Notes: generated by a model not told the origin, from the letters alone. Shown: positions 22,059-35,779, counted from the stretch's first letter. The stretch is 64,000 nt of DNA from Longimicrobiales bacterium (GCA_965226375.1 CBDDCX010000008.1:2176001-2240000), one strand, 5' to 3'. Translations and numbers: made by a program.

Positions 22059-23367
22059 TGAACAGCGCACCTGATGGTTAACACAAGTGTGCCAGCTGAT
22101 GGTTAACAGATTGGGTTACGTCCTGTGTTACCGTGGGTGTCGAAAATGACGAAGAGTTCTTCGTCAAACCACCCGAGGGTAGTGGGACCGAAGTAGACCT
22201 GCCACAGAGCGGGGCCGATGGGTTCGAGCCCGATGAACTCGTTGCCCAGAGCCGAACTGATGTTGATCCAACGCGAGTGCCAGCGGATGGCTCCGTTTGT
22301 AGAGACCTTACGGACCTCGAAGTGCTCAGGGTACTCGATGGGCGGAAGGACGTCGGGGTAGGCTCTAAGAGCCGATCGGTAGACGGAATGGGGAGTAGCG
22401 TCGTCGAGCGCCTCGTGGGGGCGGATGTGATTGAATGTGTGGCGGAAGTCGTTGAAGTGGCGCTGCTGGGCACTGAGGTTGGCCTTGGGCGGGCGAGTGG
22501 CTTCACGCTTGAGGGTCCTGTGCATGCGTTCGTGTCGGCCGTTCTGCTGCGGCTTACCCGGCTCGATGGTCTCAGGACGGATACCGAGGCGGATCCACCA
22601 GGCACTCAGGCGTGTGAGGCGAGCGAGGCCGATGGAAGCGAAGGGCGTACCATTGTCGGAGCGGATGACGGCGGGCAGACCGAACTCGCGGAAAGTCCTG
22701 ATGAACACAGGCTTGGCGAGCTCGATCGACGTGGAATACAGCCCTGTGCACTCGAGCAGGAACCGGCTGAAGCCGTCCTGGATCGTGAGGGGGTAGCAGT
22801 AGCGACCGTTGCGCATCTTGAACTGCCCTTTGAAGTCGACGGTCCAGACCGCATTGGGCTCATCCATCGCAGTGAGCGGCTTGCCGGGGTGGCCCGGTTT
22901 GCCGGAGCGTCTGCGCTTCTTCGTGATCAGGTCGTGACGCTCGAAGATGCGATCGATCGTCCTGCGAACTGGGGCCGAGCCAAACTTCTCAGCTGTGAGT
23001 TTACGGATCTTGCGTGATCCCCATCCGTAGCGCTGACGCAGGTCGACGACGTGTTCGACGATCGGCTCCTCCACGGCGTGCGGGCAGTGATGGGGTCGGC
23101 GCGATCGCTCTTGCAGTCCCTCGAATCCCTCTGCGCGGAAGCGATTCCACCAGGTGTATCCCGCGGTCCTGCTGATACCGTAGCGCCTACAGGACTCGGC
23201 GAAACTGAACGTCCGTTGTTGCACTTCGAGGATGAAGCGTACTCTTTGCTCGTACATGGTCGACCGGTTCCAGTCCATCGGGCTCTCCTTGTTGCAGAAC
23301 CCTGGTTGATAGGAACCTGTCAACCATCAGTGTAGGCCATTGTGTAAAGGATCAGGGTAGGCTGTAC
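22059..23367 (-). mobile_element. IS481-family element, complete
   Basis: Repeated end motifs TGATGGTTAACA x2 at 22072-22109, with related motifs at 23318-23358; CCGGG (or CCCGGG) direct repeat on both flanks. Confidence 0.8.
22103..23278 (-). CDS. IS481-family transposase
   Basis: N-terminal HTH (RRYGISRTAGYTW), WTVDFKG, IRSDNGTPF, PQQNGRHERMHRTLK, RPHEAL. Confidence 0.9.
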   Translation of the reverse strand: MDWNRSTMYEQRVRFILEVQQRTFSFAESCRRYGISRTAGYTWWNRFRAEGFEGLQERSRRPHHCPHAVEEPIVEHVVDLRQRYGWGSRKIRKLTAEKFGSAPVRRTIDRIFERHDLITKKRRRSGKPGHPGKPLTAMDEPNAVWTVDFKGQFKMRNGRYCYPLTIQDGFSRFLLECTGLYSTSIELAKPVFIRTFREFGLPAVIRSDNGTPFASIGLARLTRLSAWWIRLGIRPETIEPGKPQQNGRHERMHRTLKREATRPPKANLSAQQRHFNDFRHTFNHIRPHEALDDATPHSVYRSALRAYPDVLPPIEYPEHFEVRKVSTNGAIRWHSRWINISSALGNEFIGLEPIGPALWQVYFGPTTLGWFDEELFVIFDTHGNTGRNPIC

Positions 23368-23377
23368 CCGGGGTGCG

Positions 23378-23462
23378 ACCTAACGAGCGATTGCTGCGGT
23401 CGCCGTAGGCATCTAGCTCGCGCGCTTCACTTGCGGTCGGCATCTTGGTCGCACAGCAGAAT
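23378..23462 (+). other. Partial integron attC-like site (R'' and L boxes present, R' missing)
   Basis: ACCTAAC, 5-nt spacer, ATT(G)CTGC ... GCAGAAT pairing with one extrahelical G; no GTT follows. Confidence 0.5.
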
Positions 23463-25790: not shown

Positions 25791-26240
25791 ATGTTGGGAC
25801 TGCGAGAGAGAATGGCAGAGAATGGTAGTGCCCCTGGAACCGGGGAGGCCAAGCGAAGCGCGGCAGCTCCTGCGGACCCGGAGGTAGTAGATAGGCCGCT
25901 ACGGCGGCGGTTCAGTCCGTCGTACAAGCTGCGGATCGTCGAAGAAGCGGACCGGTGCACCGAGCCCGGCGAGGTGGGTCAAGTCCTGCGGCGAGAGGGC
26001 CTGTACTCGTCGCACCTGACGACGTGGCGCAAGGCGGCGCATAGCGGGTCGCTGAAGGCCCTGTCGAAGAAACGCGGCCGCAAGCCGGAGCGAAATCCGC
26101 TGGATGAGAAGGTACGCAAGCTGGAGCGGCGAAACGCACGGCTCGGGAATGAGCTCAGGAAGGCACACCTGATCATCGACGTGCAGGGAAAAGTTGCGGG
26201 GCTGCTGGGGATAAGCCTCGACGACGGGACAAACTCTTGA
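25791..26240 (+). CDS. IS3 transposase OrfA
   Basis: RRRFSPSYKLRIV, LRREGLYSSHLTTWR, coiled-coil. Confidence 0.85.
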   Translation: MLGLRERMAENGSAPGTGEAKRSAAAPADPEVVDRPLRRRFSPSYKLRIVEEADRCTEPGEVGQVLRREGLYSSHLTTWRKAAHSGSLKALSKKRGRKPERNPLDEKVRKLERRNARLGNELRKAHLIIDVQGKVAGLLGISLDDGTNS

Positions 26241-27244
26241 AGGCGGCCGATGAGCTGGCTAAGCACGTCGGTGTAAAACCGGCGTGCGCGGCCCTCGAGG
26301 TCTCCCGATCGACGTTGTACCGTCGTCGAGGCCCATCAACCGGGCAACAGCAGCCCCGCCCGACGCCCGCCCGGGCATTGAGCGAGACGGAACGAGGCGA
26401 GGTCTTCGACACGCTGTGTTCGGAGCGGTTCGTGGACCGCTCACCCGCCGAGGTGGTGGCCACGCTGCTCGACGAAGAGGTCTACCTGTGCAGCGAACGC
26501 ACGATGTATCGTGTTCTGGCCTCCGAGGTGCCGGTTCAGGAACGCCGGGCGCAGCGCACCCATCCCGAGTACAAGAAGCCCGAGTTGATGGCCACGGCGC
26601 CGAACCAGGTGTGGTCCTGGGATATCACGCGGCTGCTCGGGCCGAAGAAGTGGAGCTATTACTACCTCTACGTCATCATGGACATCTACAGCCGCTACGT
26701 CGTGGGCTGGATGGTGGCGGACCGGGAGAACTCGGCCCTGGCCGGCCGGTTGATCCAGCAGAGCTGCCTGAAGCATGGCGTCCAGCCCCGGGTCCTGACC
26801 CTGCACTCGGATCGGGGAGCTCCAATGACGAGCCAATGCACCGCTCAACTTCTCGCTGACCTCGGCGTGACCCGCTCGTTGAGCCGGCCTCAGGTGTCGG
26901 ATGACAACCCGTTTTCCGAGGCTCAGTTCAAAACCTTGAAGTACCATCCCTCGTTTCCCGGACGGTTCGGGGATCAGGGCCAAGCCAAGACGTTCTGTCG
27001 ATCGTTCTTCCGCTGGTACAATGCCGAGCACCGCCATGGCGGCATCTCGATGCTAACCCCCGAGCAGGTCCACTTCGGGAACGCCGATCAGGTCATTGCC
27101 GGCAGGAAATCCGTGCTCCGCGAAGCATGGGCCGCTCATCCCGAACGCTTCGTCAGAGGTGTGCCGAATCCCAAACCGCTCCCGGAGGCCGTCTTCATCA
27201 ATCCTCCCATCCCTTCCCTCACCACACAGGACATTGCTCTCTAA
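26237..27244 (+). CDS. IS3 transposase OrfB (DDE)
   Basis: PNQVWSWDIT, DIYSRYVVGW, LHSDRG, DNPFSEAQFKTLKY; TTG start overlaps the OrfA stop. Confidence 0.9.
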   Translation: MKAADELAKHVGVKPACAALEVSRSTLYRRRGPSTGQQQPRPTPARALSETERGEVFDTLCSERFVDRSPAEVVATLLDEEVYLCSERTMYRVLASEVPVQERRAQRTHPEYKKPELMATAPNQVWSWDITRLLGPKKWSYYYLYVIMDIYSRYVVGWMVADRENSALAGRLIQQSCLKHGVQPRVLTLHSDRGAPMTSQCTAQLLADLGVTRSLSRPQVSDDNPFSEAQFKTLKYHPSFPGRFGDQGQAKTFCRSFFRWYNAEHRHGGISMLTPEQVHFGNADQVIAGRKSVLREAWAAHPERFVRGVPNPKPLPEAVFINPPIPSLTTQDIAL

Positions 27245-33198: not shown

Positions 33199-33702
33199 GT
33201 TAGGCTGCGGGCCCCTCTCTTGACGGCAGCGACTTCTCCATAAGGCAGGAGAATTCGTCCGAGGCGGAGACGACGTAGCCTAAGCTCTCGTAGAGTCGCG
33301 TCGCCGGGTTACTCTTGAAGACGCGAAGCCGCACGAGGTCGTGGCCTTCGTTCACCGCGATGCTCTCAACGTGTTTCATTACGGCGGTGCCAAGGCCCGA
33401 GCCGCGTGATTCCTGAGTTAGCGGGATCGTCTTGAGATACAGAGCGTCATCCTCGGCACGGACGGCAAAGAACCCGACGCGCTGGCCTTCGCGATAGACC
33501 ATCTGATACGGCTGAGGAGGGGAGGGCTGCTGGAGATGACGCGCTTCGTCCCAACCGACGGTGCCGGACATCTCTTCGAAGAAGTTCGCCTTCTTGCGGT
33601 TCCGGACAAACGCGCCATCGTGCTCGGGATCGCAGGGCCTGAGCTCGAAGGTCGGTTGAGGCACGGGCGGCGCGGGTGGTTGATTGAAGGCAGCAGCCTA
33701 AC
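33199..33702 (-). other. Integron gene-cassette boundaries (R' GTTAGGCTGC at start, R'' GCAGCCTAAC at end)
   Basis: Perfect 10-bp complementary core sites at 33693-33702 and 33199-33208 bracketing one promoterless ORF. Confidence 0.7.
33200..33664 (-). CDS. GNAT family N-acetyltransferase carried as an integron-type cassette
   Basis: RGSGLGT, LRVFKSNPATRLYESLGY; stop TAA lies inside GCAGCCTAAC. Confidence 0.85.
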   Translation of the reverse strand: MPQPTFELRPCDPEHDGAFVRNRKKANFFEEMSGTVGWDEARHLQQPSPPQPYQMVYREGQRVGFFAVRAEDDALYLKTIPLTQESRGSGLGTAVMKHVESIAVNEGHDLVRLRVFKSNPATRLYESLGYVVSASDEFSCLMEKSLPSREGPAA

Positions 33703-33778
33703 ACAACTTGAAAGCACGCCCCCTGTGGGTACCGTGGAGTTGCGAAACGACCATGGACCACAGCAGAGGGCGGCTCTC

Positions 33779-34870
33779 ATGAAGCGGAACACCAAGTATG
33801 TGGGACTCGACGTGCACCAGGCAATGACGGTGGCGACGGTTCGGAGCCAAGGGGGACGAGTGATCGCGCGCAGCGTGATCGAGACGGGGGACGCATCGAT
33901 CACGGAGTTCTTCAGTGCGATGCGCGGGTCGGTGCATGTGGTGTTCGAGGAGAGAACCCAGGCGCAGTGGCTCTACGACCTACTGAGTCCTCGTGTGGAT
34001 CGGGTGGTCGTGTGCGATCGCAGAGGCGAAAAGCGTTCGGGCAACAAGGGGGACCAGGTCGATGCCGACGAGCTGTCGGAGCGGTTGCGGTGTGGCGGGC
34101 TGCGCGCGGTATACCACGGCGCACACGGCCGATCTGATCTCAAGGAGCTGACTCGAGCCTATCGCAACCTCGTCGAAGACGGCACGCGCGTGATGCTGCG
34201 GCTCAAGGCACTCTTCCGTGCGCGGGCGATCCGAACCACGGGCGGCGGAGTCTACCAGCCGAAGCAGCGCGGCGCCTGGCTCGCGCAGCTACCGGAGGGA
34301 GGAGCTCGTCTACGAGCCGAGACCCTGTACGCTCAGCTCGATGTGCTTCGGGCTCAGCGCAAGAAGACCAAGGCGGCCATGGTCGCCGAGGCGAAGCGTG
34401 ATCCGGCCTTCGGGGTGCTCGAGACGATCCCCTACTTTGGGCCCGTGCGTATCGCACTGTTGCTAGCAACCATGGGTACGCCGTGGCGCTTCCGCACGAA
34501 GCGCAACCTGTGGGCCTATGCCGGACTCGCCGTGGTCACGCGCTCGAGCTCCGACTACGAGTTGTTCGATGGGCGTCCTCGCCGGCGGCGGCGCCCTCCG
34601 CTCACTCGAGGGTTGAACCGCAACCACAATCGAGTCCTCAAGAATGTCTTCAAGGGCGCCGCCAACGTAGCCATTGGACGTCCGGGCCCATTCCTGGACT
34701 TCTATAACCGAATGCTCGAGCGCGGGATGCGCGAGGAGCTCGCCCGTGTGACGCTGGCTCGCAAGCTCGCAGCGCTCACCCTTCGTCTACTCAAAACCGG
34801 AGAAGTCTTTGATCCGACGCAGCTGAGTCGACCCCAAACATTGAGGGGGGTTCATCGTCCTAGGGTGTAG
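33779..34870 (+). CDS. IS110-family DEDD recombinase/transposase
   Basis: YVGLDVH, VFEE, KGDQVDA (DEDD); IPYFG, WAYAGLAV.TRSSS C-terminal domain; LARKL. Confidence 0.9.
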   Translation: MKRNTKYVGLDVHQAMTVATVRSQGGRVIARSVIETGDASITEFFSAMRGSVHVVFEERTQAQWLYDLLSPRVDRVVVCDRRGEKRSGNKGDQVDADELSERLRCGGLRAVYHGAHGRSDLKELTRAYRNLVEDGTRVMLRLKALFRARAIRTTGGGVYQPKQRGAWLAQLPEGGARLRAETLYAQLDVLRAQRKKTKAAMVAEAKRDPAFGVLETIPYFGPVRIALLLATMGTPWRFRTKRNLWAYAGLAVVTRSSSDYELFDGRPRRRRRPPLTRGLNRNHNRVLKNVFKGAANVAIGRPGPFLDFYNRMLERGMREELARVTLARKLAALTLRLLKTGEVFDPTQLSRPQTLRGVHRPRV

Positions 34871-35250
34871 GGGTGCAGCGCATGACCTTCGATCCCTTGG
34901 AACGTCGAATCCCTGGACGACGGTGCGGGAGGCAGTCTCAAGCAAATCCGTACGCCCGGCTCGCAGTCATGCCGAGGCACGATCCTAACTCCAGGCCCTT
35001 CCGCAGAACCCGAAGAAGTGTCAGGCCGGCCCCGAGGCTGAGTCTCAGATAGAACCATGGTTCGCGTCGTACGACCTAGGTCCACTCAATCAAGTCCAGA
35101 CGGATCGACCATCCAAGTGAGGATCATCGTGGCCGACACGAAGACTGACTCATCCAGCACACCGCTCCCTGACGATCCGGTCATTCCAGCCAAGCGGAGG
35201 CTGAGTGCCAAGCCCAACACGGCTTCGCAGACAGCCGGGGCGGAGCCCGG
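34871..35250 (+). ncRNA. Candidate bridge/seekRNA in the IS right non-coding end
   Basis: CCTAAC (34984-89) equals the target flank plus core; ATAGAAC (35049-55) equals the IS right end plus core; RNA boundaries unknown. Confidence 0.55.
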
Positions 35251-35274
35251 CCTTGACACTCTCTTTCATAGAAC

Positions 35275-35608
35275 GCCTAGTTGCTAGGCCGCCGTCGTGC
35301 AGCACTTCAGCGGTTCCGTAGGCGAGCGAGATGACATCCAGTCCGTCAAACCCCTCGGTGTAGAATGCCAAGGCAGCGGCCCGCCCTAGGATCGGATCTC
35401 CGCCAGGTGGGAGGAGGATCGCGTCGGGCGCGAAGAACCGAAGGTAGCCCTCAAGACTTTCCGCCGTGGGCCGACCAGGGCCGAACAACGCTTCAATCGA
35501 ATCGAGCTGTGCTTGTAAGATCTGGCGATCCGACGGGATGCCGGCCCTCGTGTCGGGACCGCAGGCGACAATGACAACTAGCAAAGCGAAGGGGCCGTGC
35601 CTGAGCAT
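35275..35608 (-). pseudogene. NTF2-like/DUF4440 lipoprotein, 3'-truncated at the IS110 junction
   Basis: Lipobox IVAC; FFAPDAILLPPGGDPILGRAA; the frame runs into the IS after GGLATRR. Confidence 0.65.
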
Positions 35609-35664
35609 AGAGATGCGTCTCCTGATTCTAACTATCACTGCAGCACCAGCTAACGGAAGGCATG

Positions 35665-35779
35665 TCCTAACGAGCTCACGGACTCACGACGCGAAGCGGC
35701 CGGCCCGTTGCTCACGTTAGAGCTTCGCGTCCCCGAGCGACAGCGAGCCTGAGGGCCGTGCGTGAGTCTGGCGTTATCG
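35665..35779 (-). other. attC-like site
   Basis: Minus strand CGATAAC ... GTTAGGA, 115 bp; nested IRs GACTCACG/CGTGAGTC and ACGCGAAGC/GCTTCGCGT; spacers non-canonical. Confidence 0.5.

What the first reader, a model, noticed from the sequence alone, without database searches (positions are those of the whole stretch)
33693..35284. IS1111-type recombinase with a candidate bridge/seekRNA whose guide matches the integron attC core
Seen: the IS sits between GCAGCCT-AAC (left) and ...CATAG-AAC-GCCTAG (right), so AAC, the complement of the integron GTT crossover triplet, is present at both junctions. The transposase is opposite to the cassette genes. The 400-bp right non-coding end contains TCCTAAC at 34983-89, which matches the target flank CCTAAC and also the attC-like cores at 35665 (TCCTAAC) and 23379 (CCTAAC). 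About 65 nt later it contains ATAGAAC at 35049-55, matching the IS's own right tip (35268-74). Established: IS110/IS1111 recombinases use a non-coding RNA with target-binding then donor-binding loops whose left guides end at the shared core, and some IS1111 elements target attC sites. Inference: this is a natural RNA-guided recombinase programmed to the conserved attC R box with an AAC core. The matches are only 6-7 nt, and I could not assign right-hand guides with confidence (AGGC and TCAAGT are weak candidates).
Basis: partly seen in the sequence, partly recalled or inferred. Interest (0 to 1): 0.88.

Follow-up and report, generated by a model that had tools for sequence, protein, structure and literature searches.

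The report
RNA-guided insertion sequence at integron crossover
This is a jumping gene whose small built-in guide RNA appears to steer it into the exact crossover point of integron gene-cassette sites; RNA-guided targeting of such sites is already known, but this is a distant lineage that hits the opposite end of the site.

Summary
Confirmed and extended. This is a 1,572-bp IS110-superfamily element (DEDD+S transposase, 3' non-coding region) with 9 copies in its genome. The duplicated core is AC, not AAC. The missed right-target guide lies upstream (GCAAATCCGT, 34942-51). Across 39 clusters of relatives it tracks the right flank (5.76 of 7 matches versus 3.35 permuted; 0 of 100,000). In one relative's genome, 9 of 10 occupied attC arms match its guide exactly, against 0 of 10 empty ones. 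Most relatives insert antisense at the attC R' crossover; an Acidobacteria subclade has other guides and other targets. The window copy is atypical: its left flank is a real cassette start, but its right flank lies inside a truncated gene and fits the guide poorly. RNA-guided attC targeting is published (ISKpn4, ISPst6), and this scan reported similar elements on other DNA. What differs: about 20% transposase identity to ISPa21, no SG motif, short sub-terminal repeats, and insertion at R' rather than L'', leaving GTT intact. RNA expression and activity were not shown. Verdict: new variant of a known kind.

The parts
33199..33702 (-). GNAT acetyltransferase gene cassette (gene 33664-33200), opened by R' core GTTAGGC at the IS left junction and closed by a complementary R'' core overlapping its stop codon; the rest of its attC is degenerate
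   Evidence: start/end complementarity score 11 (10 contiguous bases), reached by 0.8% of 3,000 background YYYAAC sites
33696..33700 (+). left target half (GCCTA)
   Evidence: 4 of 5 match to the left-target guide
33701..33702 (+). AC core, left copy; spans the bond at which IntI recombines attC
   Evidence: crossover between A and C of RYYYAAC per PMC7439510
33709..33714 (+). left sub-terminal inverted repeat TGAAAG
   Evidence: pairs with 35263-68; the TGAAAG, TGAGAG and TAAA(A)GG variants always match between the two ends in 66 elements
33779..34870 (+). IS110-superfamily transposase, 363 aa; D11, E57, D92, D95, S257
   Evidence: each of the five residues is invariant in 40 of 40 family proteins; this copy has G59R, shared with 1 of 6 other own copies checked and absent from 39 relatives
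34921..35065 (+). predicted bridge/seek RNA core: target-binding hairpin then donor-binding hairpin, each with a large internal loop (transcript ends unknown)
   Evidence: 25 pairs, 98.3% of cells paired, 10 pairs with changes on both sides, 0 of 500 shuffles reach this
34983..34989 (+). left-target guide TCCTAAC
   Evidence: 4.44 of 5 cognate versus 2.95 permuted, 38 clusters
35018..35021 (+). candidate right-donor guide GTGT (complement of core plus first two IS bases); weakly supported
   Evidence: matches the own left end in 23 of 34 clusters and fails in 11
35049..35055 (+). left-donor guide ATAGAAC
   Evidence: invariant in all 12 rows of alignment A1, matching the nearly invariant right tip: conservation, not covariation
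35253..35258 (+). -35 hexamer TTGACA; on circularisation it would lie 17 nt from a weak -10 (CAACTT) in the left end
   Evidence: same spacing in 7 of 7 elements shown; no complete promoter in the linear element; activity inferred
35263..35274 (+). right sub-terminal repeat CTTTCA (35263-68), right tip, and AC core right copy (35273-74)
35275..35611 (-). SnoaL/DUF4440-like ORF cut off at the IS right junction after about 112 codons; the right flank is not an attC arm
   Evidence: (feature score 0.90, relatives mostly 150-170 aa; lead only, no Pfam or NCBIfam hit)
35665..35779 (.). attC-like imperfect palindrome upstream of the truncated ORF; register ambiguous, not occupied by the IS

Best explanation
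A bridge/seekRNA-guided IS110-superfamily element. Inferred from IS621 and ISEc11: it excises as a circle, the joined ends form a promoter, and the 3' non-coding region gives an RNA bound by the transposase. Shown here by comparison: that RNA has two internal loops with guides in the order right-target, left-target, right-donor, left-donor. The target loop reads about YCTA-AC-N7-9, which in Gemmatimonadota and related hosts is the bottom strand of attC at the R' crossover plus the L'-R' spacer. Recombination at a shared AC core places the IS antisense between an attC and the next cassette. The right guide is tuned to particular attC spacer variants; imperfect sites, inside or outside attC, are also used. 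The window copy joins a true cassette start to an off-target or rearranged right flank.
For: Ends and core. An unbiased scan of the non-coding region peaks at the right guide (0.82 versus mean 0.39, sd 0.05) and the left guide (0.89 versus 0.43). Permutation: right 5.76/7 versus 3.35 (72 insertions, 39 clusters, 34 guides), left 4.44/5 versus 2.95 (69 insertions, 38 clusters), each 0 of 100,000; the right test also holds within each of three clades. Structure. Natural experiment in G225: exact guide match at 9 of 10 occupied and 0 of 10 empty attC arms, Fisher p = 1.2e-4; one empty arm there is the exact target of the window element's guide. In run X4 a 152-nt contig over all four guides differs from the window at 3 letters, all in the right guide; the same three changes appear in X9 and X10. 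attC identity: hairpin from the junction in 8 of 20 (clade A) and 11 of 30 (clade B) versus 6.2% background and 1 of 15 (clade C); cassette-end complementarity in 3 of 8, 2 of 17, 10 of 30 versus 1.6% background and 0 of 12; IntI over cut-off in the own genome and in 3 of 4 host genomes tested, in G225 about 3 kb from occupied sites.
Against: No RNA or activity is shown: only 5 low-depth contigs in one RNA run, 4 of them in the non-coding region. The window copy's right flank matches the guide at 3 of 7 positions, as does one other own copy, and 0 of 6 own right flanks pass the hairpin threshold. No perfect target exists in the own genome (best 2 mismatches). The left-guide test is not significant within clade A (fraction 0.21; 3 guides). 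The right-donor guide fails in 11 of 34 clusters. The single-sequence fold is no more stable than shuffles (z = -0.51). Relatives are not independent, so permutation values overstate. No IS-free allele of this locus was found.
Confidence: 0.88

Rival explanations
1. The guide is not 'for' attC as such. It encodes a short linear motif, and attC sites are hit only because they are the commonest carriers of it; hairpin structure and integron biology play no part in recognition.
For: Copies sit at non-attC sites that match the guide (own G2 7 of 7 and G4 6 of 7). In one Gemmatimonadales genome several copies sit in simple repeats with no attC features. Clade C uses the same scaffold on unrelated targets.
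Against: YCTA-AC left guides persist across transposases of 53-100% identity while right guides change in step with attC spacers, which points to selection for this site. This rival concerns why the site is used and is compatible with the guide mechanism.
Confidence: 0.45
2. For this copy only: the two flanks come from different insertions. One copy sat at the GNAT cassette start, another at an off-target site in the SnoaL-like gene, and recombination between them deleted the DNA in between.
For: The left flank is a true cassette start but the attC arm expected on the right is missing; the ORF is cut at the junction; right-guide match is 3 of 7. Split and truncated copies exist in the genome.
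Against: An alternative fits equally well: IntI first placed the GNAT cassette at a secondary GTT in the gene and the IS then entered that junction. Both junctions are also present in an independent run (X4), so it is not an assembly artefact, but contigs do not bridge the element.
Confidence: 0.5
3. The matches are chance or by-products of shared ancestry, and targeting is protein-directed.
For: Motifs are short; kin share both guides and hosts.
Against: Guides differ among elements at 87-93% protein identity and each follows its own flank; single-element retargetings match (L043, L049, L050, L045, L048, L053); within one genome occupancy follows the guide.
Confidence: 0.03

Closest known systems
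IS1111-attC elements ISKpn4, ISPst6, ISPa25, ISPa21 and their seekRNAs (PMC11187229; Tetu and Holmes 2008 and Post and Hall 2009 seen only as citations)
   Same: DEDD transposase, 3' non-coding region with guides, top-strand match 5' of bottom-strand match, attC target, antisense to cassettes.
   Different: The element named ISPa21 in PMC7232449, read here in NZ_CP041734.1, inserts at the start of L'', just inside R'' at the 5' end of attC, and has 13-bp repeats (PMC3001079 also says 'near the 5'-end'). This element inserts at the R' crossover at the 3' end, has 6-bp repeats, and is 22% identical over 193 aa. ISKpn4 and ISPst6 insertion points were not seen directly (figures not held).
IS621 bridge RNA system (PMC11208160, PMC13626964)
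   Same: Two internal loops (target then donor), 2-nt shared core, junction promoter layout, DEDD plus catalytic serine.
   Different: IS621 has its RNA in the left end, a CT core and REP targets; its left-before-right guide order is recalled, not checked in a call. Here the RNA is in the right end, the core is AC and right guides come first. Protein similarity is marginal (E = 0.03).
Group IIC-attC introns (PMC3001079)
   Same: Selfish elements that home to the attC bottom strand, antisense to cassettes.
   Different: Retroelements with a different chemistry; they separate the gene from its attC, whereas this IS sits at R'.

Membership tests
IS110 superfamily (bridge recombinases) | RuvC-like DEDD domain plus C-terminal domain with catalytic serine | tested here: met
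   PF01548 and PF02371 over cut-off; D11, E57, D92, D95, S257 invariant in 40 of 40; NF033542 116.8 bits, below its cut-off of 140
IS110 superfamily (bridge recombinases) | Short shared core at both junctions, no true target duplication | tested here: met
   AC at both ends; empty paralogous attC sites carry one AAC; the empty allele of this locus was not found
IS110 superfamily (bridge recombinases) | Non-coding-end RNA with internal loops whose guides covary with the target | tested here: met
IS110 superfamily (bridge recombinases) | Donor-binding guides | tested here: inconclusive
   left-donor guide invariant with an invariant tip; right-donor guide matches in 23 of 34 clusters
IS110 superfamily (bridge recombinases) | RNA is made, binds the transposase and is required for movement; circular intermediate | not testable with these tools
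   weak hint only: 4 of 5 RNA-run contigs fall in the non-coding region; no exact circle joint seen
IS1111 family | Long non-coding region downstream of tnp | tested here: met
   about 400 nt right versus about 78 nt left
IS1111 family | Top-strand guide 5' of bottom-strand guide | tested here: met
   34942-51 before 34983-89; order per PMC11187229 section 9
IS1111 family | Terminal extensions of 7 bp left and 3 bp right outside the sub-terminal repeats | tested here: met
   exact in clade C; same register in this element with one outer mismatch
IS1111 family | Sub-terminal inverted repeats of 11-13 bp (7-17 bp per PMC11208160) | tested here: not met
   6 bp here, 6-10 bp in relatives
IS1111 family | GL-P----S(t)G motif | tested here: not met
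   P is replaced by V/I/L/E and the G after the serine by A/S/D in 40 of 40
IS1111 family | Transposase groups with IS1111 relatives | tested here: inconclusive
   quick tree: ISPa21 and an IS4321-like protein join (98) apart from this family (98), but branches are long, only 5 outgroups were used and the careful search did not finish
IS1111-attC group | Inserts antisense into attC | tested here: met
   for clades own/A/B; not clade C
IS1111-attC group | Same insertion point near the 5' end of attC | tested here: not met
   R' crossover here versus start of L'' for ISPa21
IS1111-attC group | Monophyletic transposases related to ISPa21/ISPst6 | tested here: not met
   19.8% in alignment, 22% local, against ISPa21 only

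The most novel reading that the evidence does not exclude
An independently evolved bridge-recombinase lineage has converged on the very dinucleotide at which integron integrase recombines. Because its right tip rebuilds GTT, the occupied attC may stay recombinogenic; the IS would then become the head of the next cassette and be moved and shuffled by IntI instead of freezing the array. Its right guide turns over to follow host attC spacer variants, a readable guide-versus-target chase, while a second IS110 lineage competes for the L' box of the same sites.
Probability: 0.3. Interest if true: 0.7.

Novelty: new variant of a known kind. Interest (0 to 1): 0.46.

Why it matters
It adds a divergent bridge/seekRNA recombinase with a natural AC core and a fully mapped target loop. 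About 34 natural right-guide settings with their observed insertion sites give a ready rule set for mismatch and bulge tolerance. It shows a second, convergent way for RNA-guided IS elements to exploit integrons. If occupied attC sites remain active, the usual view that such insertions immobilise cassettes (raised in PMC11616780 as untested) would not hold for this lineage. The principle itself is already published, which caps the interest.

Tried and rejected
Rfam: 0 matches in the window at gathering threshold. AAC as a 3-nt core: rejected. AGGC and TCAAGT as right guides: rejected; AGGC is one strand of conserved helices and the reverse-complement scan of right flanks peaks only at 34948-50. 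A first attC heuristic requiring GTTRR was too strict and noisy and was replaced. The L' motif added was written after seeing the flanks, so those totals (5 of 9, 15 of 22, 18 of 36, 1 of 16) are descriptive; the two prior tests alone give 3 of 9, 8 of 22, 17 of 36, 1 of 16. A plain 'ORF starts near the junction' test was uninformative (background 52%). Search for an IS-free allele or a full-length SnoaL-like gene: nothing useful in 61 and 201 related genomes, JGI metagenomes or 4 runs. Search for cassette hitchhiking (same left flank with different right flanks): none among the loci; one pair had the same right flank with different left flanks (L003, L012), which independent insertion or recombination between copies explains. 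No close named relative: plasmid hits are all under 30%, and four family motifs were absent from the ISfinder-derived protein file of PMC11187229. Rows dropped: L033 (non-coding region replaced) and L041 (duplicate of L040) from guide tests; loci lacking an end or enough flank were left out of each count. The 12 rows of alignment A1 were chosen by me out of 54 distinct non-coding regions.

Full report
OBSERVATION. The gene at 33779-34870 encodes a 363-aa IS110-superfamily transposase. D11, E57, D92, D95 and S257 are invariant in 40 of 40 family proteins. The genome holds 9 copies at about 99% identity (5 full, 4 partial) and one degenerate relative. All 8 left and all 6 right junctions fall at the same bases, so the element is 1,572 bp plus one copy of the core. 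The core is AC, not AAC: the base before it belongs to the target (A in 65 of 66 flanks of clades own/A/B, G in 12 of 12 in clade C), whereas 72 of 74 right tips read ATAGA|AC. Sub-terminal repeats are only 6 bp here but change together at both ends in relatives.

GUIDES. I collected 78 related loci (46-93% protein identity), defined their ends and aligned 54 distinct non-coding regions. Sliding each element's own flanks along its own non-coding region, with no assumption about position, gave one peak for the complement of the right flank at 34948-50 and one for the left flank at 34986-88. Own guide-flank pairs beat permuted ones for both sides (0 of 100,000 each). The right test holds within each clade (fractions 0.00012, 0.00000, 0.00006); the left test holds in clades B and C but not A (0.21). 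Kin are not independent, so the strongest evidence comes from close relatives: among elements at 87-93% identity the guide takes six forms and the flanks follow. Public runs show the same: a 152-nt contig spanning all four guides differs from the window at three letters, all in the right guide. A consensus fold of 12 chosen sequences gives two hairpins with large internal loops that leave all four guide regions unpaired; 10 of 25 pairs change on both sides, and sliding or shuffling controls fall far short. The left-donor guide is invariant, like the tip it matches; the right-donor guide is short and fails in 11 of 34 clusters.

TARGET. In clades A and B the right flank often folds into an attC-like hairpin beginning at the junction (8 of 20 and 11 of 30, background 6.2%; left-flank controls 1 of 19 and 2 of 27). 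The left flank is often the start of a cassette whose end is complementary to it. The 5-nt spacer and extra base lie on the strand opposite to the IS (read, using attC anatomy that I recall), so the IS sits antisense at R'. IntI recombines between the A and C of RYYYAAC (PMC7439510), which is the IS core. IntI passes its cut-off in the own genome, where no array was seen beside it, and in 3 of 4 host genomes tested; the miss is the clade C host. In G225, intI lies about 3 kb from occupied sites. Of 20 attC arms found there with two patterns, 9 of 10 occupied and 0 of 10 empty arms match that element's guide exactly (p = 1.2e-4); one empty arm is the exact target of the window element's guide. 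Clade C (Acidobacteria) keeps the scaffold but has other guides and shows almost no attC signal (1 of 15, 0 of 12). Targeting is not exclusive: many copies sit at guide-like sites without attC features.

THIS COPY. The left flank is the start of a GNAT cassette (complementary cores). The right flank lies inside a SnoaL/DUF4440-like ORF that is cut at the junction and matches the guide at 3 of 7 positions. Both junctions are also in an independent run (X4). Either two copies recombined and deleted the attC between them, or IntI had put the cassette at a secondary GTT before the IS arrived; no empty allele was found to decide. In this genome no site matches the guide with fewer than 2 mismatches; the common attC spacer is one base shorter and those sites are empty, while two attC sites with a same-length spacer are occupied.

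MECHANISM. Shown by comparison: ends, core, target guides, loop structure, site preference. Inferred from IS621 and ISEc11 (PMC11208160, PMC13626964, PMC11187229): circle formation, junction promoter (a -35 hexamer 17 nt from a weak -10), RNA binding, strand exchange at the core. Not shown: expression, apart from 4 of 5 low-depth RNA-run contigs in the non-coding region, which may be DNA.

COMPARISON. It works like the seekRNA-guided IS1111-attC elements, but fails membership. ISPa21, read directly, inserts at the start of L'' with 13-bp repeats and is about 20% identical. The family lacks the P and G of the GL-P----S(t)G motif. It has the IS1111 layout with an IS110-type, divergent protein; PMC11187229 notes that some non-IS1111 elements have 3' non-coding regions. 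I found no description of an IS110 element at the R' crossover in searches; the two founding papers are not held, figures were not visible, and large supplementary catalogues were not searched, so it may be catalogued. Earlier notes of this scan describe attC-targeting elements with readable guides in other genomes, one in Gemmatimonadota; I did not check whether they are this lineage.

PAPERS SEEN. PMC11187229: abstract, passages, sections 6, 8, 9, supplement passages (file 5 unreadable). PMC11208160: passages, section 12. 10.1101/2024.04.26.591405, PMC3001079, PMC11089894, PMC11616780, PMC7232449, PMC5034289, PMC7439510, PMC13626964: passages. Tetu and Holmes 2008 and Post and Hall 2009: citations only.

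VERDICT. A real and unusually well-supported example. The principle is known; the lineage, the crossover-site target and the guide-spacer tracking are the new parts. New variant of a known kind, interest 0.46.

Noticed in passing
L021:4000-5132, L001, L046:3990-5114, L039; own genome C7 near 102,300: Other IS110-family elements (345 and 342 aa, 24-25% identical to this one) sit about 13-16 nt further into the same attC arms, at or near the L' box: at least one more lineage targets these sites.
   Followed up: partly
G000:C8:1779380-1781190: A degenerate relative keeps part of the guide region; its right guide is one base shorter and matches the commonest attC spacer of this genome exactly.
   Followed up: partly
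run X9, joint 35275 to 33697: One low-depth contig joins the IS right end to a left end through a few target-like bases: tandem copies or an aberrant circle (table 5c).
   Followed up: no
G000:C7:611377-611929 and 675376-674308: Two partial copies overlap by about 40 nt and face opposite ways 63 kb apart; possibly one copy split by an inversion.
   Followed up: no
G000:C4:70278-71219: The integron integrase stands apart from any array seen; attC-like sites are scattered in small clusters on C6, C7 and C8.
   Followed up: partly
L028, L029, L032, L036: In one Gemmatimonadales genome several copies sit in CGTCTCA-type simple repeats that resemble the guide target.
   Followed up: no
window 22103-23460 and 26237-27244: An IS481-like transposase ends next to the degenerate attC at 23379, and another integrase-core (rve) gene lies at 26237.
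   Followed up: no
window 33953: This copy encodes R59 next to the catalytic E57; 39 relatives and 5 of 6 other own copies have G. It may reduce activity.
   Followed up: partly
G225:C1:2204724-2227598: intI appears to point towards its cassette array rather than away from it.
   Followed up: no
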